Position numbers and translations under genes: made by a program. Below, one piece after another: positions 7,110 to 56,850 of a stretch of 64,000 nt of DNA. This stretch comes from Candidatus Kuenenia stuttgartensis (GTDB taxonomy: Bacteria; Planctomycetota; GCA-002687715; CAIWVZ01), in NCBI GenBank assembly GCA_945860915.1, contig CAMARR010000007.1:37010-101009 (forward strand). The letters are read 5' to 3'. Position 1 is the stretch's first letter. Each line of letters starts with the position of its first letter. The notes under the pieces were generated by a model that was not told where the DNA came from, did no database searches, and saw nothing but the letters and a program-made list of their open reading frames with translations.

Positions 7110-7171
7110 CGTAGCCGTTTCGCAAGTTCTCCCGGCTTGGGGTCGTGCGACGCACCCCCTACGATCCATAC

Positions 7172-8716: not shown

Positions 8717-8744
8717 CTTCTGAACAAGGCTTAGAACCACGAAC

Positions 8745-41541: not shown

Positions 41542-41949
41542 ATGCAAGCACATCCCATCATGGCCCTCGTTCTGGCTAGCCTTCTCTTGTCCGTGCCTGT
41601 TCATTCGCAAATGCCATCCGACATCAAAGTCGAGGGAACTCGACTCGTCGAGTTCAAGCGCTCGAAGGGTGCTTCCCTCGCAGGCAACGACATTTCGTGG
41701 AATGTTCCTGCAAGGACATTCGAACGCCCGTTATGGACTCGACGAGGATTCACTCTCTATCTGAGCGATGGGATCGGAGTTCTCGTGCCAGCAGGGCACG
41801 ACGCACTCGCCGAACTGCGTCGCCGGGGAGGGGTCGCTCTAGTCCGCGGAACGGTAAAACCTCATTCGGATGCAAAACCCGGCGAACCCGCGTACGTCGT
41901 GATCGTGCGCGATCTTAACCGCAGAAAGCTGCCGAAGCGCAAGTCCTAG
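41542..41949 (+). CDS. hypothetical secreted protein
   Basis: Signal peptide (MQAHPIMALVLASLLLSVPVHSQ). No family recognised. Confidence 0.4.
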   Translation: MQAHPIMALVLASLLLSVPVHSQMPSDIKVEGTRLVEFKRSKGASLAGNDISWNVPARTFERPLWTRRGFTLYLSDGIGVLVPAGHDALAELRRRGGVALVRGTVKPHSDAKPGEPAYVVIVRDLNRRKLPKRKS

Positions 41950-43322
41950 ACCTCCTCATATAGAGGGCCTGTGTCGACATGATGAGCACTGAGCGCCGCG
42001 GCAAGAACGTCACGGCCAACAAGCAGAGATGCTTTGTCTGGAGCCTCGAAACGCACGGTGAGGTTCGGGGTCGTATTGCTTGCGCGCACAAGAAACCAAC
42101 CTCCCGCAACACGCACGCGGGCGCCATCGATCTCCACGACTTCGTGCCTACGTTTCAGCTCCGAGCACAGCGCATCAACAATTCCAAATTTCACATCGTC
42201 TGCGCAGGGAACTTTGATTTCTGCAGTCGAAACCGACCTCGGGATGTCGTTGAAGAGGTCACTGCAATGTACGCCGGGCGAGTCCATCAGCTTGAGAACC
42301 ATCAACGCTCCATAGAGCGAATCGTCTATCGGGAGATAATCGCGGTTGAAAACGATGTGGCCGGAGAGTTCGCCCCCGAGCACGGCGTCAAGCTCCTTGA
42401 TATCACGCTTCAGAAGCGAGTGTCCAGTCTTCCCCATGACGGGTATCCCGCCGCACTTTCGCACCCAGTCTTCGAGAAAGTCGCCGCATTTCACATCGTA
42501 TCGAATGACGCCAGCGGGATACGTTTTCAGCATGGCCTTAGCAAATATCGCGACGAGCCAATCCGCGGAGATCTTCTGGCCGCGCTCATCGATGACCCCG
42601 ACACGATCTCCATCGCCATCAAATCCAAGACCAAGATCCGCCCGCGTCTCGACGACCTTCGACATGAGGTCTTTCATGTATTTCGGGACCTCGGGATCCG
42701 GCAGATGATTCGGGAAATCTCCGTCCGGATTGCAGTACAAGGGAATCGTGTCGATGCCAAGTCGGTTGAAGGCATCAAGAACCGTCGGTCCCATCACGCC
42801 ATTTCCGCAATCAACGGCTACGCGGAATTTCCTCGTGAATCGGAAGCGCGAGCAAACATCCTCGAGGTAACGATCCATGTAAGCGACCGCGTCGACACGC
42901 CCAGTACCCGCAAGGAGATCACGCCCGTGTGCCTCAAGGTTCAGACTCCGTATCGCATCTCCGTGGAGACCGCTGGTACCTAGGCAACATTTCAATCCGT
43001 TGTCGGGCTTGGGATTGTGGCTTCCAGTCACCATCACGCAACCACCCGCACGGAGCCTGTGAACCGCGTGGTACGTCACCGGTGTGGGCGCCACCCCGAT
43101 GTCGAACACTGTCAGCCCCGTTGAAGCGAGGCCTTCGGCAACGGCATGAGCAAGCATCGGCGATGTATGGCGCACATCTCGACCAACCACTGCATTCGTG
43201 GCGCCGCCACGGACAATTCGACTTCCGAGTGCCTTGCCTACGCCGCGAGCCACTTCCGCGGAAAGTGGCACCGGTGACTTGCCTCGAATGTCGTACTCTC
43301 GGAAAAGATTCGGGTCGAACAT
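41946..43322 (-). CDS. phosphomannomutase/phosphoglucomutase
   Basis: Alpha-D-phosphohexomutase active-site loop TGSHNP plus Mg-binding and sugar-binding domains. Confidence 0.9.
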   Translation of the reverse strand: MFDPNLFREYDIRGKSPVPLSAEVARGVGKALGSRIVRGGATNAVVGRDVRHTSPMLAHAVAEGLASTGLTVFDIGVAPTPVTYHAVHRLRAGGCVMVTGSHNPKPDNGLKCCLGTSGLHGDAIRSLNLEAHGRDLLAGTGRVDAVAYMDRYLEDVCSRFRFTRKFRVAVDCGNGVMGPTVLDAFNRLGIDTIPLYCNPDGDFPNHLPDPEVPKYMKDLMSKVVETRADLGLGFDGDGDRVGVIDERGQKISADWLVAIFAKAMLKTYPAGVIRYDVKCGDFLEDWVRKCGGIPVMGKTGHSLLKRDIKELDAVLGGELSGHIVFNRDYLPIDDSLYGALMVLKLMDSPGVHCSDLFNDIPRSVSTAEIKVPCADDVKFGIVDALCSELKRRHEVVEIDGARVRVAGGWFLVRASNTTPNLTVRFEAPDKASLLVGRDVLAAALSAHHVDTGPLYEEV

Positions 43323-43369: not shown

Positions 43370-44938
43370 ATGAGCATGCCGTTTTCTATCGCCTTCGTGA
43401 TTCTCTTTGCCGGGGTCCCCCTCGTCGCCCAAGACAGTCGCCCTGCTTCACATCCATCGACCGTGAGAGAGGTCGCGATCCTGCACACGAACGACATCCA
43501 TGGAACAATCAGGGCAATGCCTGATCCCCGCTCGCGCGAGGGTACCCCCAAGTTGGTGGGCGGCATTCAAGAACTCTGCGCGGCAATCGATGACGAACGG
43601 TTCAAGTCCCCGAACAACCTGCTCCTCGACGCCGGCGATTGGTACCAGGGCACGCCCGAAGGGACCCTGTCAAAAGGGCTTTGCTCCGTCGAGCTCATGA
43701 ATGCCATCGGATTCGATGCGGCTGTCTTGGGAAATCACGATTTCGACAATGGGGCATCCAATGTCGACACCCTCCTAGGGGTAGCCAGGTTCCCCGTGTT
43801 TGGGGTCAACATCATGGTCCCACCCGGTGCAAGTAAGCCTCCGTACCTCGAGCGCATCACACCAGGGAAGTTATTCATTACAAACGGAGTGAAGATCTTC
43901 GTAGACGGCATTCTGACGGAAGAAGCGCCACGACTCCTGAATCCTGGCGCAATGGGTGGAGCGCTTGTGGAGGCGGAAATCACCGGCGCGCAGCGTGCGG
44001 TTTCCCGCGCGCGGCAGGCGGGTGCCGAGGCACTTGTGCTTGTCAACCACGTTGGAAAAGACCGGCACTTGGTGATTGGTCGTGACGTTCAAGGCATCGA
44101 CGTCCTCATTGGCGGACACAACCACCGAGACGTTATGGATGAGCCCGTGATCATCCCCTCCACTGGGACCTTGATTGCTCAAGCTGCACCCAACGCCGGC
44201 GCGCTCGGAGTCGTTACCTTCGGCTTCGACACGGTCACCCGCAAAGTCGCCTGGAAAAAGAGCCGCCTTCGCCGAGTCGTTGGCGACCCGAGTCTGTCCA
44301 TTCCACGGCTTAAGCCCATCATCGACCTACACGAGAAGGCGGTCGCCGAGAACATGGATCGTCGGGTAGCCGAAGCCCCCGTAGCCATTCTCCGCAGTTC
44401 CGACCTCCGGCGGCCAACGCCTCTCGGCAACCTGCTTACAGAACAAATGCTGGCTGTTTCTGAAGCAGATATCGCTGTTCACAACATCAACGGGATTCGT
44501 GCAGATCTTCCAGCCGGGACGATCCGAGTCCGAGATCTTTTCATGGTCTCCCCATTCGGAAACACGGTCGTCACCGTGAAACTCCCTGGAAAGCACATTC
44601 GAGCACTCGTGGAACGTCACCTCGCCAATCCATCGCGGGGATTTGTTTTCCGGGGCATCACTACGGTATGGCGAGAGTCCGATGGACGCCGCGAGATCGT
44701 CTCGATCATGCACGATGGCAAGGACCTCGACGACGAGCGTCAGTATTCAGTCGTAACAACTGACTATTTGGCGAACGCAGCTGACGGCGCCTCGCCATTT
44801 TCTGCGGCCAGAGAGCGACGTGACCTCGGTATGACGCTGTTGGATGTTTCGATACGCAAGTGTCAGGAGGCTGGACGGCTGAACATTGACCTCGATGCGC
44901 AATGGGTGGAAGCGCCGAAGAAGCCCACTCAGCCGTGA
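43370..44938 (+). CDS. secreted bifunctional metallophosphatase/5'-nucleotidase (UshA-like)
   Basis: Signal peptide, calcineurin-like motifs (ILHTNDIHG, GNHDFDNG), 5'-nucleotidase C-terminal domain. Confidence 0.85.
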   Translation: MSMPFSIAFVILFAGVPLVAQDSRPASHPSTVREVAILHTNDIHGTIRAMPDPRSREGTPKLVGGIQELCAAIDDERFKSPNNLLLDAGDWYQGTPEGTLSKGLCSVELMNAIGFDAAVLGNHDFDNGASNVDTLLGVARFPVFGVNIMVPPGASKPPYLERITPGKLFITNGVKIFVDGILTEEAPRLLNPGAMGGALVEAEITGAQRAVSRARQAGAEALVLVNHVGKDRHLVIGRDVQGIDVLIGGHNHRDVMDEPVIIPSTGTLIAQAAPNAGALGVVTFGFDTVTRKVAWKKSRLRRVVGDPSLSIPRLKPIIDLHEKAVAENMDRRVAEAPVAILRSSDLRRPTPLGNLLTEQMLAVSEADIAVHNINGIRADLPAGTIRVRDLFMVSPFGNTVVTVKLPGKHIRALVERHLANPSRGFVFRGITTVWRESDGRREIVSIMHDGKDLDDERQYSVVTTDYLANAADGASPFSAARERRDLGMTLLDVSIRKCQEAGRLNIDLDAQWVEAPKKPTQP

Positions 44939-46221
44939 TGGAGCGACTCCACTCGTTCCTCGGCACCCTAGCCATCCTAGGGATCGCTTGGGCACTATGT
45001 CCGAAATCACGTCGGCGTCACGTCAACTATCGAACGCTGTTGTTCGGCCTCGGCCTGCTTTGGGTTTGCGCGTTGCTCGTGCTTATGACGCCGATCAAGA
45101 GCGTGTTCCAGTCGGCTCAACATGGCGTTGATACGCTCATGAGTTTCTGTGATGCAGGAACGGAGTTCGTCTTCGGCAAGGAACTGGTCAACCCCAATGG
45201 AAAACTGGGATTCGTATTCTTAGTGCGAGCACTGCCGCCGATCCTCTTTTTTTCCGCGATCATGTCGGTGCTCTACTACCTCCGTGTTCTGCCCATGATC
45301 GTTCGGTTCCTTGGCCGCACTCTCTCGTCAGTACTTGGCACAAGCGGCGCAGAGTCATTCTCCACGGCTGCGGACATTTTCGTTGGTCAAACGGAGGCTC
45401 CGCTCACCATCCGCCCCTACCTAGCGAAGGCGACACGATCCGAGATTCATGCGTGCATGACCGCAGGATTCGCAACAACGGCGGGCGCAGTGCTTGTTAC
45501 CTACGCGACGATGCTGAAGTCTCTTGTCCCTGGCATCGCAGGGCATCTGATCGTATGCAGCGTACTCTGTGCTCCGGCCTCACTGATCATTGCAAAACTG
45601 ATGTACCCTGAAGATTCAACGCCTGAAACCGCTGGCAAGACGGATCTCGAGTTGCCTCGAACGTCCGTCAACCTCGTCGATGCCATCACATCAGGGACAA
45701 CTGACGGGCTTCGTCTAGCCGTCAACGTTGCGGCCATGTTGATCGTTTTCATCGCGATGACTGCGCTCCTTGATGCGGGACTCATGGGCCTGTCAAAGTG
45801 GTTGGCGTCGCTAGTTGGAGACGGGGGTGGCTTGATACCTCCCGAAGGATGGTCGCTCGCAGGACTCCTTGGGATCATTTTCCGCCCACTCGTCTGGTTG
45901 CTTGGCATCGCCCCCGGCGACGTGCCCCTCGCCGCAAGTCTCATCGGGAAAAAGACTGTTCTCAACGAGTGGATCGCATACCGCGATATGGCCACCACTC
46001 TCGCCGACAATCCGAGCGCCCTATCCGAGCGAGGCCGACTCATCATGTCCTACGCCCTATGCGGCTTCGCCAACTTTGCCAGCATCGGAATTCAGATCGG
46101 TGGTTACTCTGCTCTCGAGCCTTCGCGGAGAAGTGACTTCGCGTCCCTTGCCGTTCGAGCCATGTTCGGTGGACTCCTAACCACTTGTTTGGTTGCCGCC
46201 GTCGTCGGCGTTCTGACGTGA
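44938..46221 (+). CDS. nupC: NupC/NupG family concentrative nucleoside transporter
   Basis: CNT-family polytopic membrane protein, 427 aa. ATG overlaps the ushA-like stop. Confidence 0.85.
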   Translation: MERLHSFLGTLAILGIAWALCPKSRRRHVNYRTLLFGLGLLWVCALLVLMTPIKSVFQSAQHGVDTLMSFCDAGTEFVFGKELVNPNGKLGFVFLVRALPPILFFSAIMSVLYYLRVLPMIVRFLGRTLSSVLGTSGAESFSTAADIFVGQTEAPLTIRPYLAKATRSEIHACMTAGFATTAGAVLVTYATMLKSLVPGIAGHLIVCSVLCAPASLIIAKLMYPEDSTPETAGKTDLELPRTSVNLVDAITSGTTDGLRLAVNVAAMLIVFIAMTALLDAGLMGLSKWLASLVGDGGGLIPPEGWSLAGLLGIIFRPLVWLLGIAPGDVPLAASLIGKKTVLNEWIAYRDMATTLADNPSALSERGRLIMSYALCGFANFASIGIQIGGYSALEPSRRSDFASLAVRAMFGGLLTTCLVAAVVGVLT

Positions 46222-47222
46222 GCTCCTTCGATTCCCATCCGAAGGTGGAGCTTCACCTTCACCTAGATGGCGCCCTTCGGACGGCAACACTCTTCGACAT
46301 GGCAACCACCTTCGGCCTGTCCATGCCTCATGGCGGGATTGAGGCCTTTGACTCATTGGTTCGCGCAAGTCCCGACTGCACCTCACTTGAGCAGTTTCTG
46401 AAGCCATTTGACGTGATCGCGCCCATCCTCTCGCACCCGGACACGCTGATTCGGGCCACGAGGGAGGTCATCGAAGACTTGCATGCGCAACACGTTATCC
46501 ATGCTGAGCTTCGATTTGCGGCTAGCCTCATGACGGGACCAAAGCGCCCTCTCGAAGCCGTCGTCGAGGAAGCTCTGACCGGCCTTCATCAAGGAACTTC
46601 GCAAACCGGGATGTCCGCCGGCATCATCCTGTGCGTGTTTCGAATTGGAAGTGTAGACGAGGCACTCCACACCGCGCGGGTCGCTGCGCGTTATCGAGAT
46701 CGTGGCGTTGTCGGAATCGACCTTGCCGGCCCCGAGGCGGCCCCTGCACGACCCTACTATGAAGCATTCCGTCTCGCACGAGATGCGGGGCTTGGCATCA
46801 CGTTGCATGCTGGAGAAGCATGTGGCCCCGAGAACATCCGTGAGGCTATTGACCTGTTCGGTGCCACTCGAATCGGTCACGGGCTAACGCTCGAGCGAGA
46901 CTTAAGACTCATGCGCCAAGTCATAGATCAAGACATCGCCATCGAGTCCTGTCCCACCAGCAATATTCACACCGGCCAAATTCGATCACTCGCCGAGCAT
47001 CCATTTCGTCGCTATTTAGATGCAGGCGTTGCAATCACGCTTTCCACCGACGACCCGTCGCTCTCTCGCATCACACTCAACGGTGAATGGGAGAATTGCA
47101 GGCGCGCGTTTGGACTTGACGCAATGGACTTCGATAGAATCAATGAGAATGCGATTCGTCATGCCTTCATCCCTGCATCCGAGAAAGCGCGCTTCGCCAA
47201 GCGCCTTGAAAGACGCCCATGA
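46218..47222 (+). CDS. add: adenosine deaminase
   Basis: Metal-binding HxH (VELHLHLDG) and SLSTDDP motif. GTG start overlaps the nupC stop. Confidence 0.85.
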   Translation: MSSFDSHPKVELHLHLDGALRTATLFDMATTFGLSMPHGGIEAFDSLVRASPDCTSLEQFLKPFDVIAPILSHPDTLIRATREVIEDLHAQHVIHAELRFAASLMTGPKRPLEAVVEEALTGLHQGTSQTGMSAGIILCVFRIGSVDEALHTARVAARYRDRGVVGIDLAGPEAAPARPYYEAFRLARDAGLGITLHAGEACGPENIREAIDLFGATRIGHGLTLERDLRLMRQVIDQDIAIESCPTSNIHTGQIRSLAEHPFRRYLDAGVAITLSTDDPSLSRITLNGEWENCRRAFGLDAMDFDRINENAIRHAFIPASEKARFAKRLERRP

Positions 47223-47605
47223 CTCCTGATGAACTTGTCCAGCTCGCAGCCAAGGCTCGAAAGTTGGCGTACGCGCCATACTCCCACTACAAAGTGGGTG
47301 CCGCCATCCTGGCAAACGATGGACGTGTTTTCACCGGCTGCAATGTTGAAAACGCTTCATTTGGCCTCACCTGCTGTGCAGAACGAACGGCCGTGTTCTC
47401 CGCAGTTGCTGCAGGAGCGAAGAAATTCGCAGCGATTGCCATTGTGACTTCCAACGGTGGATCACCGTGCGGAGCGTGTCGACAAGTGCTCCGCGAATTC
47501 GGAACGTCTACGCTCGTCATCATGTCCCGACCAAAAGGACGACCAACCGCAGCCTTGCTCGGGGACCTGCTTCCGGGATCTTTCGGACCGGAGCAACTGC
47601 GATGA
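47219..47605 (+). CDS. cdd: cytidine deaminase
   Basis: Zinc motif CAERTA ... PCGACRQ. 128 aa. Confidence 0.9.
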   Translation: MTPDELVQLAAKARKLAYAPYSHYKVGAAILANDGRVFTGCNVENASFGLTCCAERTAVFSAVAAGAKKFAAIAIVTSNGGSPCGACRQVLREFGTSTLVIMSRPKGRPTAALLGDLLPGSFGPEQLR

Positions 47606-49179
47606 AGGCCGCACTGTTTATCGTGCTGATGCTCATCGGAGCCGTCTCGCAGGCTCAGGAGACGCTTCCGGCGCGACCCGAAATCCCCGAATTCCCCACA
47701 GAATCCGTGTGGATCAACACCCCCCGCCCCTTGACGCTCCACGGCGACCTCAAGGGCCACGTCGTACTCCTCGACTTCTGGACCTACTGCTGCATCAACT
47801 GTCTCCACATTCTTCCCGATCTCGAGGACCTAGAGACTCGCTTCCGCGACGTTCCATTCGTCGTCGTCGGAGTTCATAGCGCGAAGTTCGACAACGAGAA
47901 TGTGCCGGAGAACGTCCGGGCAGCAGTCCGTCGTCACCACATCTCACATCCGGTCGTCGTCGATACGAAGCAAGACTTGTGGCAACGACTGGGAGTTCGC
48001 GCATGGCCGACTCTCATTCTCATTGACACCGAGGGGCGTGGATTCCGCGCCTGGTCCGGCGAAGGCAACAAGGAGTCCATCGCGGAGGCGATCACAAAGC
48101 TGGTTGCGGAAGGCCGAGCCCGCGGAACACTTGCCGACAAGGCGTGGAAATCCGAGTCTCTGCCTCCACTTGAAACTGCGACTGGCTTGTCCTTCCCCGG
48201 AAAAGTGATCGGATCACCCACCAGCGATAGGATTTTTGTTGCGGATTCAAGCGCCAACCGAATCATTGAGGCAACCTGGCCCAATAAGGAAGGAAGGTCA
48301 AAACTGGTGCGCATCTTCGGGACGGGTTCCCCGGGCTACGCCGACGGGGATCAGCTGCGCGCCCAGTTCCGCTTTCCACAAGGGCTTGCGCAAGTAGGCA
48401 ATGATCTATGGGTCGCGGACACGGACAACCACGCAGTCCGACATATTGATCTCGCGTCGGGAGTTGTCTCCACGCTTGTAGGCAATGGAACGATGGGCAA
48501 CGATCGTTCCGGCGGAAAGCGAGGCCGAGAACAATCGTTAAATTCCCCATGGGATCTCGCTGCGTCACCTGGGTCCTTGGCCGTCGCGATGGCAGGGACG
48601 CACCAACTCTGGAAGGTCGATACGACGAATGCGCTCGCCCGCAGGTTCTCCGGCTCAGGCCGCGAGAACATCAAAGATGGGGCGCCCGATGTAGCGAATT
48701 TTGCGCAACCATCTGGTCTCGCGTGGCTCGGGGTTGATTTATTGGTCGCCGACAGCGAAACCAGTTCCATTCGTCGAGTTTCACCGGATGGTCGTGCAAG
48801 CACTTTAGTTGGAGAAGGCCTGTTCGAATTTGGAGATACCGACGGACCCTTAGGCAGCGCACGACTTCAACATGCACTCGGTGTTGCTGTTCTCGGCAAG
48901 TCGATCATCATCGCGGATACGTACAACTCTAAACTCAAACTCATCGATACCGGCTTAACTCGCGTTGACACGTTGCCTCTCACATTCGCCAGCGAGCCCA
49001 AGTCGTTAGCGGAGCCAGGCGGAGTCTCTTCAGCCGGAGATAGGTGGCTTGTCGCAGACACAAACCACCACCGCATTCTCCAAGTCTTCGAAGATGGGAG
49101 AGCTATCGAGGTTCAAATTGCTGGGATTCGCAAGCAGGACTCGCGCCCCGCTCCGGCGCCTGAATCCCGCCCTCGTTAA
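47602..49179 (+). CDS. secreted thioredoxin-like (TlpA/redoxin) domain fused to NHL-repeat beta-propeller
   Basis: Signal peptide, a CINC redox motif in a thioredoxin fold, then at least 5 NHL repeats (VADTDNHAVRHID, VADSETSSIRRV, IADTYNSKLKLID, VADTNHHRILQV). ATG overlaps the cdd stop. Confidence 0.8.
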   Translation: MKAALFIVLMLIGAVSQAQETLPARPEIPEFPTESVWINTPRPLTLHGDLKGHVVLLDFWTYCCINCLHILPDLEDLETRFRDVPFVVVGVHSAKFDNENVPENVRAAVRRHHISHPVVVDTKQDLWQRLGVRAWPTLILIDTEGRGFRAWSGEGNKESIAEAITKLVAEGRARGTLADKAWKSESLPPLETATGLSFPGKVIGSPTSDRIFVADSSANRIIEATWPNKEGRSKLVRIFGTGSPGYADGDQLRAQFRFPQGLAQVGNDLWVADTDNHAVRHIDLASGVVSTLVGNGTMGNDRSGGKRGREQSLNSPWDLAASPGSLAVAMAGTHQLWKVDTTNALARRFSGSGRENIKDGAPDVANFAQPSGLAWLGVDLLVADSETSSIRRVSPDGRASTLVGEGLFEFGDTDGPLGSARLQHALGVAVLGKSIIIADTYNSKLKLIDTGLTRVDTLPLTFASEPKSLAEPGGVSSAGDRWLVADTNHHRILQVFEDGRAIEVQIAGIRKQDSRPAPAPESRPR

Positions 49180-50704: not shown

Positions 50705-52351
50705 ATGACCCAGCCCGTCTCTAGGTTGCTCATAACGTTCGCGCTCCTTGTTGCACAAATTGGCGCTCAGATTGCGTTCCCGTATCCACCCCCAAGTCCC
50801 GGCAACACAACACCATGCGACATCCTCATCGCCGGGGGCACATTTGGCGGCGTTGCTGCGGCAGTCGGCGCATCGGGTCTCGACACCTGGGTCATCGAAG
50901 ACTCGGATTGGATTGGCGGACAGGTAACCTCGCAGGGCGTCTCCCCTCTCGACGAACACCGCTTTATCGAGACGTTCGGGGGCACATTCGCCTACGACAC
51001 GTTTCGAAAGCGTATTCGAGACCATTACGGCGAAAAGAACCCGGGGCGAGGATGGGTCAGCCGCCTTTGTTTCGAGCCTCGAATCGGCCTGAAGGTCCTT
51101 GAGCAACTCGCTCGGGAGTCACGTACCAAGGTCCTGCTCAACGCTCGGGTGACTGCAATCACCCGTCAGGCCGAGAAAATCACGTCTGCGACCGTGACCC
51201 TCAAAGACGGCAGCACGCGCGTGTTTAAACCGAAATTCATTCTCGATGCAACCGACCTCGGTGATATCTACCCACTCGCTGGCATTCCCTTCCGCATCGG
51301 CAGCGATGCAAAGGCCGACACCGGAGAGCCACACGCAGACACCGTTGCTAATCCGCGCCGAACTCAGAGCTTCACTTACTGTTTCGCGGTCGACTTCGTC
51401 AAGGGCAACAAGGAACTGATCAACAAACCACGCGACTACGAACGCAACCGTGACAATCAGCCCTATTCTTTGAGCATCGGCGGAGCTGAGCGGCCTCAGG
51501 TTTATCGAGTGTTCGAACACGCGAAGGGCACCGGAGGACCATTCTGGACCTATCGCACGCTGACTCCTGACATTGCGATGATCAACTGGCCCGGCAACGA
51601 CTATCGAGGAACGGAGGTTCTTCTTGCCAACCACGACGACGCAAAAAACCTCGCCTTGGGATTCTTGTACTGGCTTCAGAACGAATGCCCCCGCGATGAC
51701 GGTGGCCGTGGCTATCCTGAGATGCGGCTCCGAAAAGATGTCATGGGTACCGAGGATGGGCTCTCCATGCGCCCATACTACCGTGAAGGTCGTCGACTCA
51801 AGGCAATGACGACCATTGTCGAGCAAGACATCGTCGCAGGGGCGCATTCTAGTTCAGGGAGTTCTGCCCGAGCGGCCCTATTCGCCGATTCCGTTGGAGT
51901 CGGGTACTACCCCATTGATATTCACGTATGCCATGGGGACACCAAGGAAGAACACAGCTCTGGACTGCCCACAAAGCCGTTTCAAATTCCGCTTGGGTCC
52001 TTGATACCTATCGGTGTCACGAACGTACTTGCTGCAGGAAAATCGCTCGGTGTTACGCACGTTACAAACGGCTCATATCGCCTACACCCCGTTGAATGGA
52101 ACACAGGAGAATCAGCAGGCCGCACTGCTCGATTTTGCATCGATAAGCAGAAATCACCAATCGAAGTACGCGCGAACCCCGCCCTCATGCAAGAACTTCA
52201 ACGAAGCCTGCTCACGGATGGCGTACCAATCTTCTGGTATGTCGACTTGAAGCGCGATTCGGCGGACTGGATCGAGGCTCAGATGACAGCCGTCAAATCA
52301 GGAACTGCAGTTGATCCGACATCACTTGGACTCAAGGCGAAGGTGCAATGA
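50705..52351 (+). CDS. secreted FAD-dependent oxidoreductase (FAD_oxidored-like)
   Basis: Signal peptide followed by a dinucleotide-binding motif (ILIAGGTFGGVAAA). Confidence 0.65.
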   Translation: MTQPVSRLLITFALLVAQIGAQIAFPYPPPSPGNTTPCDILIAGGTFGGVAAAVGASGLDTWVIEDSDWIGGQVTSQGVSPLDEHRFIETFGGTFAYDTFRKRIRDHYGEKNPGRGWVSRLCFEPRIGLKVLEQLARESRTKVLLNARVTAITRQAEKITSATVTLKDGSTRVFKPKFILDATDLGDIYPLAGIPFRIGSDAKADTGEPHADTVANPRRTQSFTYCFAVDFVKGNKELINKPRDYERNRDNQPYSLSIGGAERPQVYRVFEHAKGTGGPFWTYRTLTPDIAMINWPGNDYRGTEVLLANHDDAKNLALGFLYWLQNECPRDDGGRGYPEMRLRKDVMGTEDGLSMRPYYREGRRLKAMTTIVEQDIVAGAHSSSGSSARAALFADSVGVGYYPIDIHVCHGDTKEEHSSGLPTKPFQIPLGSLIPIGVTNVLAAGKSLGVTHVTNGSYRLHPVEWNTGESAGRTARFCIDKQKSPIEVRANPALMQELQRSLLTDGVPIFWYVDLKRDSADWIEAQMTAVKSGTAVDPTSLGLKAKVQ

Positions 52352-53171
52352 CCCATCGGGGCGCCTTACCACGTTCCTTGTCCATTCTGGCGAGGAACTG
52401 CAACGCCCCAAGTCCGACATCAATTGCGTGAGATTCAGCCTTGGCGCGTTGTCCGGCTTCGAGAAAGACGTCCGTCGCCCGATTCGCGAAAACCGCGCAA
52501 ACAGCGCCTGCGCGGCACCCGAGGAGATGCGCTAACACGAGAAGGGACGATGCCTCCATCTCAAGATTGAGGACCCCCTGATCGGCTAATTGTTTTGGCA
52601 GTTCCGAGAACCGCCCCTTGAGCACTTCATGGTCACGCCCCTGCCAGCCGTAGAAACCTGGTGCGGTCGCAGTAAGACCTACGTGGTGCCGGTGGCCGCA
52701 AGACGCGGCTGCAGACGACAACGCGAGGACAACCTCATGGTTCGCGACAGCCGGAAACCCTGGCTCGACGAAGGCTGCTGTCGTGTTCTCAAGGCGAACT
52801 GCTCCCGTTGTGATCACGAGATCGCCTGGCTTCATGTCCGCGCGCAACGCGCCGCATGTCCCGACCCTGATGATGTCCGGCGTTTCAACGCATCGGAGAA
52901 GTTCAACAACCGCGATTTCTGTGTTGTCGGGGCCCATTCCCGTCGCCATGACTGTGACGTCAAGCCCCTTCCAAATGCCCGTGAAGGTCACAAACTCACG
53001 GTGGGTTTTGGGGAACCCAGGGCGAATGGAATCGAAGCGCTTGGCAATCGCGGCCGCGCGGGCCGGGTCGCCAACAAGCAGAATCCGACGAGCCACATCT
53101 TTGGGCTTCAGGCCGATGTGATATTGCTCACCGGCAGGACCCTTCGGTCGATTGGCACGTTGCTGGCTCAT
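52332..53171 (-). CDS. nucleoside phosphorylase (PNP/UDP family; DeoD/Udp-like)
   Basis: PNP_UDP_1 fold ([26 protein letters not shown] ... [15 protein letters not shown]). Overlaps the deoC stop by 4 nt. Confidence 0.8.
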
Positions 53172-53938
53172 CCTTCTCCCCTAACGATCTTCACTCCGGC
53201 ACTCGCGCCGACGCGCGTTGCGCCGGCGGCGACCATGCGCTCGAGCGTCGCGCGATCCTTGACGCCTCCGGAAGCCTTCACGCCGAGAGAAGGACCCACT
53301 TCGGAGCGCATGAGAGCGATATCAGCAACGGTCGCACCGCCGGTTGAAAACCCGGTGGAAGTCTTGACGAAATCAGCGCCGGCCTTGACAGAGAGTCGAC
53401 ACGCACGGCGTTTCTCATCATCAGTCAGAAGGCACGTTTCCAAAATCACTTTGACTGTGATTCCCGCACGGCGCGCTGCGGTAACGGCCTCGATATCCCT
53501 AAGGACATCGTCATCCCGATTGGACTTGAGTAGGCCGATGGCGATGACCATGTCAATCTCGGTCGCCCCAAGTTCAATAGCCAATCGTGTCTCAGTGGCC
53601 TTCACGGCCGCCAATGTCGCGCCCAACGGGAATCCAACGACGGTGCACGTTTTAACGCCTGTGCCCGTGAGGCGGCGGGCGCATCGCTCAACCCAGATGG
53701 GATTAACACACACCGACGCAAATCGATGTTCCGCAGCCTCATCGCAAAGCCGGTCAATCTCATACTGCATAGCGTCGGGCTTGAGAATCGTGTGATCGAT
53801 CAGCGCCGCTACACTTGGAATTGCGTTCTTGGGCGATGGAGTAGTTCCGATGCGATCAGCACCCGCAACCACAAGCGCGTCGGTGACCGCATCAACCAAG
53901 CGCTCAAATGCGGCCGGATCCATGGCTCGACGGGTCAT
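53168..53938 (-). CDS. deoC: deoxyribose-phosphate aldolase
   Basis: Class I DERA. Schiff-base Lys context (FVKTSTGF) and catalytic Lys (VGVKASGG). Collinear with Thermotoga-type DERA, with about 12 extra N-terminal residues. Confidence 0.9.
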
Positions 53939-54216
53939 GTTGGTCGGCTCTCCATGTCGAGCCCGTCAACCACGGCAACGATGACTGCTTGGACAGGTGT
54001 CGACTCACTCCCGATCATCATGCGCGCGCTGCCGCCTTCCTTCAGGATGACGACGAGATCTCCTTCGCCCGAGTCCACATGATCCACGGCCACTAACGCG
54101 CGTCCCGTGGGTGTGCCATCAGGATTTACAGGCTGGGCCAAGAGCAAACGCGCCCCCGCCAATTCACCATCGGCGATGGTGGCGTATACGGCACTCTGAA
54201 TGCGCGCAAGAATCAC
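53935..54216 (-). CDS. bacterial microcompartment vertex protein, EutN/CcmL/PduN family (BMC-P), copy 3
   Basis: [30 protein letters not shown] ... [17 protein letters not shown] ... SARMMIG ... AVIVAVVD matches the Pfam PF03319 pattern. GTG start overlaps the previous stop (GTGA). Confidence 0.78.
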
Positions 54217-54503
54217 CGAACGTCTCCGGGTAGAGGAAGTCGGTCTAGGATCGCAATGACTGACGCATCCGTCGCCACGAGATCCGTGGCATAGAGCCGC
54301 TTCCATGGAATCGCAGCCTCGCTTGCTGTCACATAAAGGACAATTTGCCCGGGACCTGCTCCAACTGTGTCAGTGGCGGCGATGACAGCACCATGCGGCG
54401 CTCCGGCTGCATTGAGAGGCTGCAGCATCAACATGCGACCGCGTTCAAGCGCTGCTTGCTTGGCCGTTGCCCAAACGGAACCAACGACACGAGCAATTTC
54501 CAT
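54213..54503 (-). CDS. bacterial microcompartment vertex protein, EutN/CcmL/PduN family (BMC-P), copy 2
   Basis: MEIARVVGSVWATAKQAALERGRMLMLQPLN ... ATDTVGAGPGQIVLYVTASEAA ... ASVIAILD is the canonical BMC-P pattern. 96 aa. Confidence 0.85.
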   Translation of the reverse strand: MEIARVVGSVWATAKQAALERGRMLMLQPLNAAGAPHGAVIAATDTVGAGPGQIVLYVTASEAAIPWKRLYATDLVATDASVIAILDRLPLPGDVR

Positions 54504-55207
54504 CAGGAACCTTCGATGAGCGCCACACGTCGGGTGTGGCGTCCCCCTTCAAAGGCCGTGTCGAGGAATGCGTCGACGATAGCCACCATCTCTTGCTCTT
54601 TCACGATTCTCGAACCAAGGCACAGGACGTTCGCGTCATTGTGGCTTCGAGCGGAGATGGCCTCGGCTACGACGGCGCAAGGCGCCGCGCGGACACCAGC
54701 ATGCCGGTTGCATGCCATCGCCGAAGCGACACCGGACCCATCAATGACAACAGCGCGTGCAACTCTTCCGGAAACTACCGCAAAGGCCGCTTGGTGGGCA
54801 AAGTCCGGCCAATCGACGGCTTCCGTCGAATGTGTTCCAAGATCGATGACCGTAATTCCTTTTGAAACAAGCAGAGGCTTCAGCGCCTCCTTGGCAGCGA
54901 ATCCTCCGTGATCTGATGCCACGGCAAGCAGATTCTTCACGGGCAATGGCCCGGCCTTCATGGCGACGCCGAGACGGTCAGCCGTCTCCCGCGCCAGCGG
55001 CGTCACCAATGAACCATCCGGCACTATTACAGGACTTCGAGCGGTGTACGCCGCCAAGACATCGGCCTCTGTTACGAGTAGACGTTGACGCCTATCTGCG
55101 GCGTCATCGAAACGCCTCCATCCGGCCACGCTCGCGGGCATCGAGGTCGGAGCGAACTTCTCGACAAGCGCGTCGCGGACGGCACGGCGGATCGCTTCAC
55201 GATCCAT
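54503..55207 (-). CDS. ribose-5-phosphate isomerase B (RpiB/LacA/LacB family) with about 85-aa N-terminal extension
   Basis: The C-terminal 149 aa align along the whole of E. coli RpiB (SDHGGF ... VIDGSGVASAMACN ... SHNDANVL ... FEGGRH). The N-terminal 85 aa have no RpiB counterpart and begin with an amphipathic helix. Confidence 0.8.
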   Translation of the reverse strand: MDREAIRRAVRDALVEKFAPTSMPASVAGWRRFDDAADRRQRLLVTEADVLAAYTARSPVIVPDGSLVTPLARETADRLGVAMKAGPLPVKNLLAVASDHGGFAAKEALKPLLVSKGITVIDLGTHSTEAVDWPDFAHQAAFAVVSGRVARAVVIDGSGVASAMACNRHAGVRAAPCAVVAEAISARSHNDANVLCLGSRIVKEQEMVAIVDAFLDTAFEGGRHTRRVALIEGS

Positions 55208-55529
55208 CCGGCTGTACTCCTAGATCAGTAACGCCCATCCTGTCAAACACTGCCCAATCACGGTCGACGATTTCTAGATCATCGACGATCGCAACGATCA
55301 CGGCATCAACCGCCTTATCCTTGGTGGCCTCCGTCTGACGTGCGCTCGACCCCTGAGTGACGAGCACAGTTTCACCCATCCCCGCGCCAATGACGTCGAC
55401 GGCGATCACGAACCCATCCCCCAGCGTTCGATCGGGCTTCAGCGCGCGTACAATCATCCACTTGAACCCCGAGACACGGGGATCTTTGCGGGTGGCCCAC
55501 ACGGTTCCTACAACTCTTCCAAGCAGCAT
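55197..55529 (-). CDS. bacterial microcompartment vertex protein, EutN/CcmL/PduN family (BMC-P), copy 1
   Basis: MLLGRVVGTVWATRKDPRVSGFKWMIVRAL ... VDVIGAGMGETVLVTQGSSARQ ... AVIVAIVDDLE. Start taken at the internal Met. Confidence 0.8.
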   Translation of the reverse strand: MLLGRVVGTVWATRKDPRVSGFKWMIVRALKPDRTLGDGFVIAVDVIGAGMGETVLVTQGSSARQTEATKDKAVDAVIVAIVDDLEIVDRDWAVFDRMGVTDLGVQPDGS

Positions 55530-55594: not shown

Positions 55595-56287
55595 ATGAAG
55601 TCATTCCCCCGCGATCTTCTCGGTTCCTCTCGGCTCATCCTCCTCGCGATGGCCGTCTTCGCGTGGCTTTGCAAGGGGGTGCCCAACTTCATGCAAGGCG
55701 CCCCAGAAATCGTCGTGGATATGGCTGATTACTGCGGTGAGTTTGCGCCTCGGCTCCTAGCTGGGTCAGCAACCGTAGCCGGCGTCATTCACTTGCGCGG
55801 CGTTGAGCGATGGCAGTCACTGATCATCCCTTTGACGTTGCTCTTGGCCCTATTCGGGCTGCATCTTCGCGCCATTAACGCTCCAAACGATGTGGGCCAG
55901 CTCGAAGACCTTGCGACCACGGTCCTTACTCTGGCTTTCCCTTTCGCTGTTCTGATTCCTCTCGCCCGACGGGGCCCCGGATGGATAGGTTCCTTCGTCG
56001 TTTCTGCCCTTTGCTTTGGCATCGGACTGGCAATGGCATTCACTCGGCCGAACCGAGCAGCGTCGTACCTGAGTTCCGGCCTGGGCCTTCCCCCAACCGG
56101 AATCTACGCGCCACTGGCGGTCGCGATTTTGGCCGCGTTACTCCCGCTGGCACTCTCTCGAAGGTACGGACTCACGGTCGCAATTGCGACGTTTGCGTCG
56201 GCGCTACTGCCCCCTCTATGGGGCGACGGAGTTCGGCTTGCAATCTGCGTTATAGGAATGGCGCTCAGCTCAGCGCCGACGATCTAG
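55595..56287 (+). CDS. hypothetical polytopic membrane protein
   Basis: About 6 hydrophobic helices. It is the only long ORF in an otherwise gene-free 0.7-kb segment between the BMC-P operon and the BFN gene. Start taken at MKSFPRD. Could be an antisense artefact. Confidence 0.4.
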   Translation: MKSFPRDLLGSSRLILLAMAVFAWLCKGVPNFMQGAPEIVVDMADYCGEFAPRLLAGSATVAGVIHLRGVERWQSLIIPLTLLLALFGLHLRAINAPNDVGQLEDLATTVLTLAFPFAVLIPLARRGPGWIGSFVVSALCFGIGLAMAFTRPNRAASYLSSGLGLPPTGIYAPLAVAILAALLPLALSRRYGLTVAIATFASALLPPLWGDGVRLAICVIGMALSSAPTI

Positions 56288-56850
56288 GATTTCTCGTCGT
56301 CTGACGACTCATCAGAGAATTCGTCGTCGTCGAGCTCATCATCATCATCTTCGTCGTCGCTTTCCGCTCCGTCATCTTCCTCGTCCGCCTCGTCTCCATC
56401 CTTACTGTCAAGCATCGCCAGTTGCTCAGTGAAATCCTCCACGGTCTCAAGAACGCTCGTTGTGACCATAAGAGGAACTCCCCACTTCAACGCGAAAACC
56501 ATAGCGTCAGAAGCACGGGTATCGAGTCTTACCTCATTGCGATGCGAGTCAAGCTGTTGGCTCAGAATCAACGACGCACAATAGACTCCATTGTGAACAC
56601 TTGAGATCACAGCCCGCGTTACTCCGATGTCGAAACCGCGCAGAGCAAATTCCATAAGATCATGGGTCATCGGTCGATCTGCTCTGACTTTTCTGAGCTC
56701 ACGATCGATTGCCGCCCCTTCTACCTGACCGACGAAGATGACGAAGAGTTTGGTCGGATGCTTGATTGCAACGCCCACGGTCCCGCTTTCGCGAAAAACC
56801 AGAACGCGGTCGATCGATACCTCGACTGGTACGTTGGGATCAGTTGCCAT
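56284..56850 (-). CDS. bifunctional nuclease (BFN/DUF151) domain protein with poly-acidic C-terminal tail
   Basis: BFN-domain pattern (RPMTHDLMEFAL ... RASDAMVFAL) followed by about 45 residues of almost only Asp/Glu/Ser. Confidence 0.65.
   Translation of the reverse strand: MATDPNVPVEVSIDRVLVFRESGTVGVAIKHPTKLFVIFVGQVEGAAIDRELRKVRADRPMTHDLMEFALRGFDIGVTRAVISSVHNGVYCASLILSQQLDSHRNEVRLDTRASDAMVFALKWGVPLMVTTSVLETVEDFTEQLAMLDSKDGDEADEEDDGAESDDEDDDDELDDDEFSDESSDDEKS

What the first reader, a model, noticed from the sequence alone, without database searches (positions are those of the whole stretch)
52332..55529. Three EutN/CcmL-type microcompartment vertex genes coupled to RpiB, deoxyribose-phosphate aldolase and a nucleoside phosphorylase in one operon
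Six minus-strand genes are chained by 1-11 nt start/stop overlaps: BMC-P, RpiB fusion, BMC-P, BMC-P, deoC, PNP-family phosphorylase. BMC-P pentamers have no known role outside bacterial microcompartment shells. Their translational coupling to deoC and rpiB marks this as a sugar-phosphate-utilising (SPU-like) microcompartment locus, a class with little experimental characterisation. DERA releases acetaldehyde, the kind of volatile and toxic aldehyde that microcompartments typically sequester. Three divergent BMC-P paralogs in one operon, together with a deo-type phosphorylase, is an unusual composition.
Basis: partly seen in the sequence, partly recalled or inferred. Interest (0 to 1): 0.85.

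Follow-up and report, generated by a model that had tools for sequence, protein, structure and literature searches.

The report
Deoxyribose microcompartment satellite operon, Planctomycetota
This is a real six-gene operon for the corner proteins and two cargo enzymes of a known kind of bacterial protein organelle that breaks down deoxyribose phosphate; its one uncommon feature is a directly coupled nucleoside-splitting enzyme, and the wall-forming genes of the organelle lie somewhere else.

Summary
Six minus-strand genes (55529..52332) are chained by 11, 1, 4, 4 and 4 nt overlaps: BMC-P, RpiB with an N-terminal extension, BMC-P, BMC-P, DeoC, and a uridine-phosphorylase-like enzyme.

This is the cargo-plus-vertex module of a sugar-phosphate-utilising (SPU) microcompartment. 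A BMC-P triplet is the published hallmark of SPU, HO, ACI and FRAG types, so it is not unusual.

The 64 kb window has no BMC-H, BMC-T or aldehyde dehydrogenase gene, and neither does the 10 kb beyond its right end. It is therefore a satellite-type fragment. The closest catalogued type is FRAG5 of Sutter 2021: Planctomycetes, scattered components, SPU enzymes and a BMC-P triplet.

What is less ordinary:
- The phosphorylase follows DeoC in the same order in eight divergent Planctomycetota lineages, but in none of 80 RPI loci from other genomes.
- A nucleoside-scavenging operon and a PGM/PMM-family mutase lie next to the module in four lineages, including the window.

This is genomic support for deoxynucleosides as the source of deoxyribose 5-phosphate.

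I could not test whether shell hexamers are encoded elsewhere in the genome.

Verdict: new member of a known kind, modest interest.

The parts
55197..55529 (-). BMC-P paralog 1 (vertex pentamer), 110 aa, with a short conserved C-terminal tail (RDWAxFD)
   Evidence: PF03319 E 2.8e-27, full-length. It falls in similarity cluster 1, which takes the first position in every complete triplet. The tail is conserved in the L093 and L094 orthologs.
54503..55207 (-). RpiB-family protein, 234 aa: N-terminal amphipathic helix (res 3-18), disordered linker (20-39), folded mini-domain (44-85), then the RpiB domain with the catalytic Cys replaced by Asp156
   Evidence: PF02502 E 7e-47 on residues 95-231. Asp156 is invariant in 16 homologs and aligns with the Cys of T. 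maritima and C. thermocellum RpiB. AF2 model, mean pLDDT 84. Hydrophobic moment of residues 1-16 is 0.52-0.57, at or above the protein's 95th percentile.
54213..54503 (-). BMC-P paralog 2, 96 aa, with an AIPWK insertion typical of the middle paralog
   Evidence: PF03319 E 2.3e-22. It belongs to the Planctomycetota-specific cluster 4, which sits in the middle position of the triplet.
53935..54216 (-). BMC-P paralog 3, 93 aa, GTG start
   Evidence: PF03319 E 1.1e-19. Cluster 2, the last position of the triplet. Called as 93 aa on independent contigs.
53168..53938 (-). Deoxyribose-phosphate aldolase (DERA), 256 aa, with a 41-aa N-terminal extension carrying an amphipathic helix
   Evidence: TIGR00126 at 273.9 bits against a cut-off of 117.3. 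Best solved homolog is DERA 8qps, E 1.3e-77, aligned from residue 42. The EIDMV, VKVILET and FVKTSTG motifs are present. Hydrophobic moment of [14 protein letters not shown] is 0.577, above the 95th percentile.
52332..53171 (-). Uridine-phosphorylase-like nucleoside phosphorylase (NP-I family), 279 aa, with no encapsulation-peptide-like extension
   Evidence: PF01048 E 7e-38. Best NCBIfam match is TIGR01718 uridine phosphorylase at 200.9 bits, below the 280.3 cut-off. Best PDB matches are uridine phosphorylases, 3qpb at E 1e-41. The [26 protein letters not shown] and NR motifs align with UP.
43376..49179 (+). Neighbouring five-gene operon chained by 1-4 nt overlaps: 5'-nucleotidase, CNT-family nucleoside transporter, adenosine deaminase, cytidine deaminase, thioredoxin/NHL protein
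   Evidence: Pfam. Adenosine deaminase TIGR01430 at 288 bits against a cut-off of 216.6. Gene boundaries come from gene calls on an identical contig. A related nucleoside gene set (CNT transporter and a PGM/PMM mutase, with a second PNP_UDP_1 in place of adenosine deaminase) lies beside the module in three relatives.
41946..43271 (-). PGM/PMM-family (alpha-D-phosphohexomutase) protein, divergent from the nucleoside operon; a candidate phosphopentomutase
   Evidence: Four PGM_PMM domains. No NCBIfam equivalog cut-off is reached. It is conserved next to the nucleoside genes in three relatives. The phosphopentomutase role is an inference.
56284..56850 (-). Bifunctional-nuclease-domain (BFN) protein with an acidic tail; a conserved upstream neighbour, probably a separate transcript
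   Evidence: PF02577 E 7e-25. It is adjacent to the module in P0016's contig, L094, L102, L163 and L164.
55595..56287 (+). Divergently oriented hydrophobic ORF with no family match, positionally conserved next to BMC-P1
   Evidence: Called on independent contigs. No Pfam or NCBIfam hit. Only 18-32% identity among positional counterparts. Coding-like GC1/2/3 pattern.

Best explanation
The six genes form one operon. It supplies part of a fragmented, SPU-type (FRAG5-like) catabolic microcompartment in a Planctomycetota bacterium.

Shown:
- There are three vertex-pentamer paralogs of the canonical triplet.
- There is a DERA with intact catalytic motifs and an N-terminal amphipathic helix.
- There is an RpiB homolog with an N-terminal amphipathic helix whose catalytic Cys is replaced by Asp.
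- There is a uridine-phosphorylase-like enzyme with no such extension.
- All six genes are translationally coupled.
- The same gene order is kept in eight divergent lineages.

Inferred mechanism:
1. A 5'-nucleotidase and a CNT transporter, encoded next door, bring in nucleosides.
2. Cytidine and adenosine deaminases convert them.
3. The cytosolic Udp-like phosphorylase releases (deoxy)ribose 1-phosphate.
4. The adjacent PGM/PMM-family mutase converts this to (deoxy)ribose 5-phosphate.
5. Deoxyribose 5-phosphate enters a shell built from hexamers and trimers encoded elsewhere and capped by the three pentamers.
6. Inside the shell, DERA is held by its own helix and by the RPI partner. Published work found that partner to be nearly inactive on ribose 5-phosphate and to bind DERA.
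7. DERA releases glyceraldehyde 3-phosphate and acetaldehyde.
8. An aldehyde dehydrogenase encoded elsewhere converts the acetaldehyde to acetyl-CoA.
For: - Gene identities and overlaps.
- BMC-P triplet in the canonical order. Literature says the triplet is universal in SPU and in FRAG types.
- The N-terminal extensions of DERA and RPI match those described for all SPU DERA and RPI. Evidence here.
- The RPI Cys-to-Asp change matches the published SPU6 RPI, which was nearly inactive and formed a complex with DERA.
- Planctomycetota origin. FRAG5 is described as Planctomycetes with scattered components, SPU enzymes and a BMC-P triplet.
- The order P-RPI-P-P-DERA-PNP is conserved at 41-49% RPI identity in the window, P0016's contig, L093, L094, L102, L144, L163 and L164.
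- A nucleoside gene set (CNT transporter plus PGM/PMM mutase) is adjacent in four of these lineages. Cytidine deaminase abuts or overlaps the phosphorylase in three others.
- The route 5'-nucleotidase, uridine phosphorylase, mutase, deoxyribose 5-phosphate, SPU shell was proposed independently for archaeal SPU compartments (PMC12747264).
Against: - No BMC-H, BMC-T, AldDH or PTAC gene lies in the 64 kb window or the 10 kb beyond its right end, and none lies within 10 kb of the module in any relative. The existence of a shell in this organism is therefore inferred, not shown.
- The window's DERA extension is only 41 aa. It lacks the roughly 40-aa Cys-rich segment that its relatives carry.
- The phosphorylase and the mutase do not reach any NCBIfam equivalog cut-off, so their substrates are inferred.
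- There are no expression data.
Confidence: 0.7

Rival explanations
1. The module is an add-on to another microcompartment type of the same genome, such as the fucose/rhamnose PVM organelle common in Planctomycetes. It would lend that shell a second substrate, much as EUT modules do for SPU and HO shells, rather than being part of a dedicated FRAG5/SPU-type organelle.
For: Sutter 2021 describes satellite modules that extend a main BMC to another substrate, and reports that PVM is widespread in Planctomycetes. No dedicated shell hexamer or AldDH gene is near the module in any lineage.
Against: The module carries its own complete pentamer triplet, which would be redundant for a shell that already has vertices. 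SPU BMCs tend not to co-occur with other BMC types. FRAG5 genomes were reported with their own BMC-H, BMC-T and AldDH genes.
Confidence: 0.15
2. This clade has no hexamer shell. The three pentamer paralogs, the inactive-looking RPI and DERA form a hexamer-free assembly or scaffold that channels deoxyribose 5-phosphate and limits escape of acetaldehyde.
For: BMC-H is absent from every flank examined in eight lineages, over about 20 kb each, and from 74 kb around the window locus. The reason for BMC-P triplets is acknowledged as unknown.
Against: No BMC-P function without BMC-H is known. FRAG-type genomes scatter shell genes over as many as six sites, so absence from the flanks is expected. I could not scan whole genomes.
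Confidence: 0.05
3. The operon is a decaying remnant of a former SPU locus. The pentamer and RPI genes are no longer functional, and only deoC and the phosphorylase still do ordinary cytosolic deoxynucleoside catabolism.
For: The RPI lacks the catalytic Cys. The window's DERA has lost a roughly 40-aa segment of the extension that its relatives keep. Shell hexamer genes are not nearby.
Against: All six ORFs are intact, and their order and tight coupling are kept across lineages whose IF-2 is only 53-70% identical. Each pentamer paralog is 42-77% identical to its counterpart in relatives that carry the module, against 28-33% between the three window paralogs. The Cys-to-Asp change is invariant in the family and is shared with the characterised SPU RPI.
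Confidence: 0.05

Closest known systems
FRAG5 fragmented BMC type (Sutter et al. 2021, Supplementary Data 2)
   Same: Found in Planctomycetes. The SPU signature enzymes PF01791 and PF02502 occur together with a BMC-P triplet, and the components are not gathered in one locus.
   Different: Only three loci were catalogued, and the text names no phosphorylase. I could not confirm the other FRAG5 components for this genome: two BMC-H, two CcmP-like BMC-Tdp, one BMC-Ts, and an AldDH with a C-terminal EP.
SPU (sugar phosphate utilising) BMC, subtypes SPU1-7 (Axen 2014; Sutter 2021; Dwyer, Sutter and Kerfeld 2024)
   Same: DERA with an N-terminal helical extension. RPI with an N-terminal encapsulation peptide and without the catalytic Cys. 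DERA and RPI genes close together. A BMC-P triplet.
   Different: Curated SPU loci all contain an AldDH and BMC-H/BMC-T genes, and this region has none. The RPI gene sits between pentamer genes. A Udp-like phosphorylase is part of the operon, whereas none was found next to 80 other RPI loci.
[quoted passage not shown]
   Same: Pentamer genes are split off from the main locus together with an aldolase. An EP-like extension sits on a distal DERA homolog.
   Different: The HO satellite aldolase is a class II PF00596 enzyme, the taxon is Myxococcota, and the satellite holds two rather than three pentamer genes.
E. coli deo/udp nucleoside catabolism (deoC, deoA, deoB, deoD, udp, cdd, nupC)
   Same: The same chemistry: a nucleoside transporter of the NupC/CNT family, cytidine deaminase, phosphorolysis, a mutase and DERA. 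The comparison with E. coli rests on general knowledge.
   Different: No DeoB-type mutase and no DeoA. The phosphorylase is Udp-like. DERA carries a targeting-type extension and is flanked by shell vertex genes.
Hodarchaeales SPU-type archaeal microcompartments (bioRxiv 2025, PMC12747264)
   Same: The proposed supply route is 5'-nucleotidase, uridine phosphorylase, phosphodeoxyribomutase, then deoxyribose 5-phosphate into a DERA/AldDH shell with three pentamer paralogs.
   Different: There the supply enzymes were found genome-wide and not in the operon. Those loci are complete, DERA is fused to a flavoprotein domain, and one pentamer carries a DNA-binding disordered tail.

Membership tests
SPU BMC locus | DeoC-family aldolase (PF01791) as signature enzyme, with catalytic residues intact | tested here: met
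   PF01791. TIGR00126 at 273.9 bits against a cut-off of 117.3. The Asp and two Lys motifs align with solved DERAs.
SPU BMC locus | N-terminal amphipathic-helix extension on DERA, absent from non-BMC DERA | tested here: met
   The 41 aa before the DERA core have no counterpart in PDB DERAs. Helix moment 0.577, above the 95th percentile. The extension is shorter than the roughly 85 aa of relatives.
SPU BMC locus | RpiB-type isomerase (PF02502) with an N-terminal encapsulation peptide | tested here: met
   PF02502 on residues 95-231. Predicted helix at residues 3-18 followed by a disordered linker. Amphipathic.
SPU BMC locus | Triplet of BMC-P paralogs | tested here: met
   Three PF03319 genes in three similarity groups that keep the order seen in other phyla; the middle one forms a separate Planctomycetota cluster. 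I did not test assignment to the published colour clades.
SPU BMC locus | Aldehyde dehydrogenase (PF00171) in the locus (inclusion criterion of Dwyer et al. 2024) | tested here: not met
   Every ORF of 400 aa or more in the 64 kb window was scanned against Pfam, and none is PF00171. Gene calls within 10 kb beyond the right end show none.
SPU BMC locus | At least one BMC-H (PF00936) together with BMC-P (definition of a 'main locus', Sutter 2021) | tested here: not met
   tblastn with four BMC-H seeds and PduB found nothing in the window at E of 10 or lower beyond chance-level fragments. The same BMC-H seeds did detect BMC-H in other SPU loci.
Satellite BMC locus (Axen 2014 / Sutter 2021) | Only one class of shell protein present, with or without enzymes | tested here: met
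   PF03319 only, together with DERA and RPI.
Satellite BMC locus (Axen 2014 / Sutter 2021) | A main locus or further shell loci elsewhere in the same genome | not testable with these tools
   Only the window and 10 kb flanks could be read.
FRAG5 | Found in Planctomycetes | tested here: met
   The top named IF-2 relatives are Planctomycetota/Planctomycetes MAGs, at 43-53% identity over the full length. Named RPI, DERA and PNP relatives are also Planctomycetota.
FRAG5 | Two standard BMC-H, two CcmP-clade BMC-Tdp, one BMC-Ts and an AldDH with a C-terminal EP at other genomic sites | not testable with these tools
   Whole-genome access would be needed.
Uridine phosphorylase (TIGR01718 equivalog) | Score above the curated cut-off | tested here: not met
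   200.9 bits against a cut-off of 280.3. It is still the best-scoring family. The residues that bind phosphate and uracil in E. coli and V. cholerae UP align (the residue roles are from general knowledge).
Ribose-5-phosphate isomerase B (TIGR01120 equivalog) | Score above the cut-off and a catalytic Cys | tested here: not met
   131.2 bits against 138.65, while the subfamily model NF004051 is passed at 146.9 against 135. Asp replaces the Cys.

The most novel reading that the evidence does not exclude
The clade that carries this module has no BMC-H or BMC-T genes at all. The conserved pentamer triplet, the catalytically altered RPI and DERA would then build a hexamer-free assembly. That would be the first role for BMC-P proteins outside a conventional shell.
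Probability: 0.05. Interest if true: 0.85.

Novelty: new member of a known kind. Interest (0 to 1): 0.35.

Why it matters
The physiological substrate of SPU-type microcompartments has only been inferred. They are among the most widespread kinds and are still poorly characterised.

In this Planctomycetota clade, the cargo and vertex genes are translationally coupled to a Udp-like phosphorylase. In some lineages they are also coupled to cytidine deaminase. In four lineages the module lies beside a nucleoside-uptake gene set and a candidate pentose-phosphate mutase.

This gene linkage points to nucleosides, probably pyrimidine deoxynucleosides, as the feedstock. It gives a concrete set of genes to test.

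The locus also shows that the pentamer triplet and the cargo can be kept apart from the hexamer genes over long evolutionary distances. That bears on how fragmented BMC loci are regulated.

None of this changes the known picture of BMC biology.

Tried and rejected
1. Looking for the rest of the organelle.
- tblastn with BMC-H and PduB seeds, plus Pfam on all large ORFs, found nothing in the window.
- A look-up at the right edge added 10 kb of type II secretion genes only.
- The look-up at the left edge failed because that exact protein is not on record.
- Proteins from outside the window cannot be looked up, so I could not walk further along the 157-158 kb contig.

It returned only relatives at 36-53% identity, mostly from other phyla, and did not return the window's own genome. 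It did serve as a comparison set.

3. The single metagenome scan used a back-translated VTPLARETA pattern. It gave 68 loci, of which 64 were chance matches and 4 were true.

5. The conserved mini-domain of RPI.
- Pfam gave weak PDU_like (PF15953) hits for 3 of 14 members.
- A PDB profile search gave nothing.
- Foldseek gave only a local resemblance to part of IF2/eIF5B domain III, with E of 0.13 or higher.
- I assign no family.

6. I considered and rejected two ideas.
- The 114-aa gene between PNP and RPI in MAG GCA_040219065.1 is not a divergent BMC-P. It reads as a lipoprotein-like sequence.
- No riboswitch or other RNA family controls the operon. Rfam and tRNA scans of the window were empty.

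7. The promoter scan is uninformative: 2 sites found against an expected 1.9, and neither lies upstream of the operon.

Full report
**1. What is in the sequence**

The minus strand between 55529 and 52332 carries six ORFs. By Pfam they are:

| Coordinates | Family | E-value | Note |
|---|---|---|---|
| 55529..55197 | EutN_CcmL | 2.8e-27 | |
| 55207..54503 | LacAB_rpiB | 7e-47 | residues 95-231 of 234 |
| 54503..54213 | EutN_CcmL | 2.3e-22 | |
| 54216..53935 | EutN_CcmL | 1.1e-19 | GTG start |
| 53938..53168 | DeoC | 9e-18 | |
| 53171..52332 | PNP_UDP_1 | 7e-38 | |

The junctions read from the DNA are ATGGATCGTGA (11 nt shared), TGATG (1 nt), GTGA (4), ATGA (4) and ATGA (4).

Gene calls on identical contigs from independent assemblies give the same six genes, including the 93-aa form of the third pentamer gene. 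The 3' end of the phosphorylase gene overlaps the 3' end of a convergent FAD-oxidoreductase gene by 20 nt, so the operon ends there. Terminator-like hairpins inside the chain do not exceed the shuffled expectation.

**2. What the proteins are**

*DERA.* The aldolase passes the NCBIfam deoC equivalog model with a wide margin: 273.9 bits against a cut-off of 117.3. It aligns from residue 42 onward with solved DERAs (8qps, E 1.3e-77), and the Asp and two Lys motifs are kept.

The first 41 residues have no counterpart in ordinary DERAs. They contain an amphipathic stretch, [14 protein letters not shown], with a moment of 0.577, above the protein's 95th percentile.

*RPI.* The RpiB homolog has a 94-residue extension. 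An AlphaFold2 model built on 16 homologs has a mean pLDDT of 84 and predicts four parts:
- a helix at residues 3-18;
- a disordered stretch at 20-39;
- a confidently folded 40-residue beta-alpha unit at 44-85;
- the RpiB fold.

The first helix is amphipathic. The catalytic Cys of RpiB is replaced by Asp156. This residue is invariant in the 16 homologs and aligns with the Cys of the T. maritima and C. thermocellum enzymes.

*Phosphorylase.* It scores best against uridine phosphorylase models: TIGR01718 at 200.9 bits, below the 280.3 cut-off, and PDB 3qpb at E 1e-41. It keeps the motifs [26 protein letters not shown] and NR. In E. coli and V. cholerae UP these carry the phosphate-, uracil- and ribose-binding residues; those roles are from general knowledge, and the alignment is.

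It has no amphipathic terminal extension. I therefore take it to be cytosolic.

**3. Surroundings**

I annotated the whole window.

A plus-strand operon at 43376..49179 is chained by 1-4 nt overlaps. It encodes:
- a 5'-nucleotidase;
- a CNT-family nucleoside transporter;
- adenosine deaminase (TIGR01430, 288 bits against a cut-off of 216.6);
- cytidine deaminase;
- a thioredoxin/NHL protein.

Divergent from this operon is a PGM/PMM-family mutase (41946..43271).

Upstream of the pentamer operon lie a hydrophobic ORF on the other strand and a bifunctional-nuclease-domain protein.

The rest of the window is housekeeping: IF-2, ThiC, cytochrome c biogenesis, histidine utilisation, glycosyltransferases and a two-component system.

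No ORF matches PF00171 or PF06130, and Pfam reported no PF00936 on any ORF scanned. tblastn with four BMC-H seeds and PduB found nothing, although the BMC-H seeds readily detected BMC-H in other SPU loci. Ten further kilobases beyond the right end encode type II secretion genes. Rfam and tRNA scans of the window were empty.

**4. Organism**

The named relatives of the window's IF-2 are Planctomycetota MAGs. The nearest other sequence is 70% identical. The window therefore comes from a thinly sampled Planctomycetota lineage.

**5. Comparison with relatives**

The order BMC-P1, RPI, BMC-P2, BMC-P3, DERA, phosphorylase recurs in seven further lineages:

| Locus | Source | RPI identity to window |
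|---|---|---|
| P0016's contig | 93 kb JGI contig | 49% |
| L093 | JGI contig | 42% |
| L094 | Logan contig | 47% |
| L102 | metagenome contig | 43% |
| L144 | metagenome contig | 41% |
| L163 | GCA_044222185.1, 2.26 Mb contig | 47% |
| L164 | ERZ25072999, 4.30 Mb contig | 41% |

Several further observations come from these loci:
- The short overlaps between genes are kept.
- In L164, cytidine deaminase joins the chain as a seventh gene with a 4-nt overlap. In L102 and L144 it abuts the phosphorylase convergently.
- In P0016's contig, L093 and L164, a CNT transporter, a second PNP_UDP_1 gene and the PGM/PMM mutase lie within 10 kb. P0016's contig and L093 also carry the 5'-nucleotidase. In L093 the upstream synteny is otherwise broken.
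- Two other Planctomycetota MAGs (L089, L036) carry the first five genes. L089 has no phosphorylase after DERA and sits among unrelated genes; the L036 contig ends before DERA.
- One MAG has phosphorylase, RPI and DERA with no pentamer genes nearby.
- None of these loci has BMC-H or AldDH within the 10 kb flanks.
- In 80 RPI loci drawn mostly from other phyla, the phosphorylase was adjacent in none.
- Orthologs of the phosphorylase at 53-54% identity in two other genomes sit next to thymidine kinase or cytidine deaminase, with no BMC genes.

The phosphorylase thus belongs to a general pyrimidine-nucleoside enzyme family. One Planctomycetota clade has recruited it into the module.

**6. The pentamer triplet**

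The three window paralogs are 28-33% identical to each other. In contrast, P1 is 58-77% and P2 and P3 are 42-57% identical to their counterparts in relatives that carry the module.

I clustered 50 BMC-P sequences from all retrieved loci into four groups. Every complete triplet was ordered group 1, then group 3 or 4, then group 2. This held in Chloroflexota, Gemmatimonadota, Acidobacteriota and Planctomycetota alike. The triplet here is the canonical, ancient one and not a local expansion.

**7. What is known**

- Axen 2014 defined SPU from DeoC and RpiB genes next to shell genes, and defined satellite loci.
- Sutter 2021 found 280 SPU loci in 26 phyla. It described BMC-P triplets as a recurrent feature, described satellite loci that carry pentamers plus an aldolase, and catalogued fragmented types.
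- Their Supplementary Data 2 lists FRAG5 with three loci, all in Planctomycetes. These have the SPU signature enzymes, a BMC-P triplet, two BMC-H, two BMC-Tdp and one BMC-Ts, and an AldDH with a C-terminal encapsulation peptide, scattered over the genome.
- Dwyer, Sutter and Kerfeld 2024 state that all SPU loci have at least a BMC-P triplet, that all SPU DERAs have an N-terminal helical extension, and that SPU RPI has an N-terminal encapsulation peptide. They also report that the SPU6 RPI lacks the catalytic Cys, is nearly inactive on ribose 5-phosphate, and forms a complex with DERA. That paper does not contain the words nucleoside or phosphorylase.
- A 2025 preprint on archaeal SPU-type compartments proposes 5'-nucleotidase, uridine phosphorylase and a mutase as the cytosolic supply route. 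It is based on genome-wide gene presence.
- Full-text searches found no paper that reports a nucleoside phosphorylase within a BMC operon.

**8. Interpretation**

The region is the cargo-plus-vertex satellite operon of a fragmented SPU-type organelle, closest to FRAG5. The steps shown and the steps inferred are separated in the Best explanation section.

The main open point is whether hexamer, trimer and AldDH genes exist elsewhere in this genome. The FRAG5 description makes it likely that they do.

I consider three rivals:
- an add-on to another BMC type (0.15);
- a hexamer-free assembly (0.05);
- a decaying remnant (0.05).

Conservation of intact, tightly coupled genes across lineages whose IF-2 is only 53-70% identical argues against decay.

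**9. Verdict**

- The SPU-like reading is right in kind.
- The claim that the triplet is unusual is wrong.
- 'Locus' overstates what is present.
- The phosphorylase coupling is real, conserved within a clade, and not described in the searchable literature. It fits a supply route that has already been proposed.

I rate this a new member of a known kind, with interest 0.35.

Noticed in passing
window 54953-55078 (RPI residues 44-85): The part of the SPU-type RPI extension that the literature calls an unstructured linker contains a conserved unit of about 40 residues (xLVTEADVxxA...GAIVTPLARETAxRxGV; E47, T69, P70 and A72 invariant in 16 homologs). AlphaFold2 folds it with pLDDT 83-96 in context and 95 on its own. 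Family assignment failed: weak PF15953 PDU_like hits for 3 of 14 members, and only a local Foldseek resemblance to part of IF2/eIF5B domain III with E of 0.13 or higher.
   Followed up: yes
L093:11401-12261, L094:11306-12172, L089:11171-12076, L008:10750-11604 versus window 53168-53938: Most DERAs of related Planctomycetota modules carry an extra segment of about 40 aa between the N-terminal helix and the catalytic core. In three of the four aligned relatives it holds four regularly spaced Cys (CxDx3-4Cx3CxTxC), which looks like a metal-binding motif. The window's DERA lacks the whole segment.
   Followed up: partly
L031, L040, L047, L048, L050, L057, L064, L067, L072, L073, L085 and other Acidobacteriota loci: Many Pyrinomonadaceae and other Acidobacteriota MAGs have an RPI adjacent to a DERA with no BMC-H or BMC-P gene within 10 kb. 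In several of them the RPI carries the full N-terminal extension. This suggests that distal SPU-type cargo pairs are common outside Planctomycetota.
   Followed up: partly
window 47602-49179 (+): A 525-aa thioredoxin-like/AhpC-TSA protein with NHL repeats is the last gene of the nucleoside-scavenging operon and overlaps cytidine deaminase by 4 nt. That is an unexpected partner for nucleoside catabolism. It is absent from the equivalent position in relatives.
   Followed up: no
window 56284-56850 (-): A bifunctional-nuclease-domain (PF02577) protein with a long Asp/Glu-rich C-terminal tail sits upstream of the module in the window and at least five relatives. It might feed nucleic-acid breakdown, but it also lies within a block of conserved housekeeping synteny.
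   Followed up: partly
window 55595-56287 (+): A hydrophobic ORF with no family match is divergently oriented from BMC-P1, leaving only about 65 bp between the two starts. A no-family ORF occupies the same position in every relative, but the sequences are only 18-32% identical.
   Followed up: partly
L164:10825-11193: In the 4.30 Mb contig of ERZ25072999, cytidine deaminase is appended to the module as a seventh translationally coupled gene, directly linking pyrimidine deamination to the BMC operon.
   Followed up: partly
window 55197-55277 (BMC-P1 C-terminus): BMC-P paralog 1 has a C-terminal tail of about 25 aa beyond the Pfam domain, with a motif RDWA(A/V)FD conserved in the L093 and L094 orthologs. 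The other two paralogs lack it.
   Followed up: partly
window 7145-10403 (+): Histidine ammonia-lyase and urocanase genes lie side by side. This is an ordinary hut pair unrelated to the finding.
   Followed up: no
L090:5379-9806 (beyond the right end of the window): Two tandem secretin genes are followed by T2SS E, F, G and pseudopilin genes just outside the window. The tandem secretin pair also recurs in P0016's contig, a 49%-identity relative.
   Followed up: no
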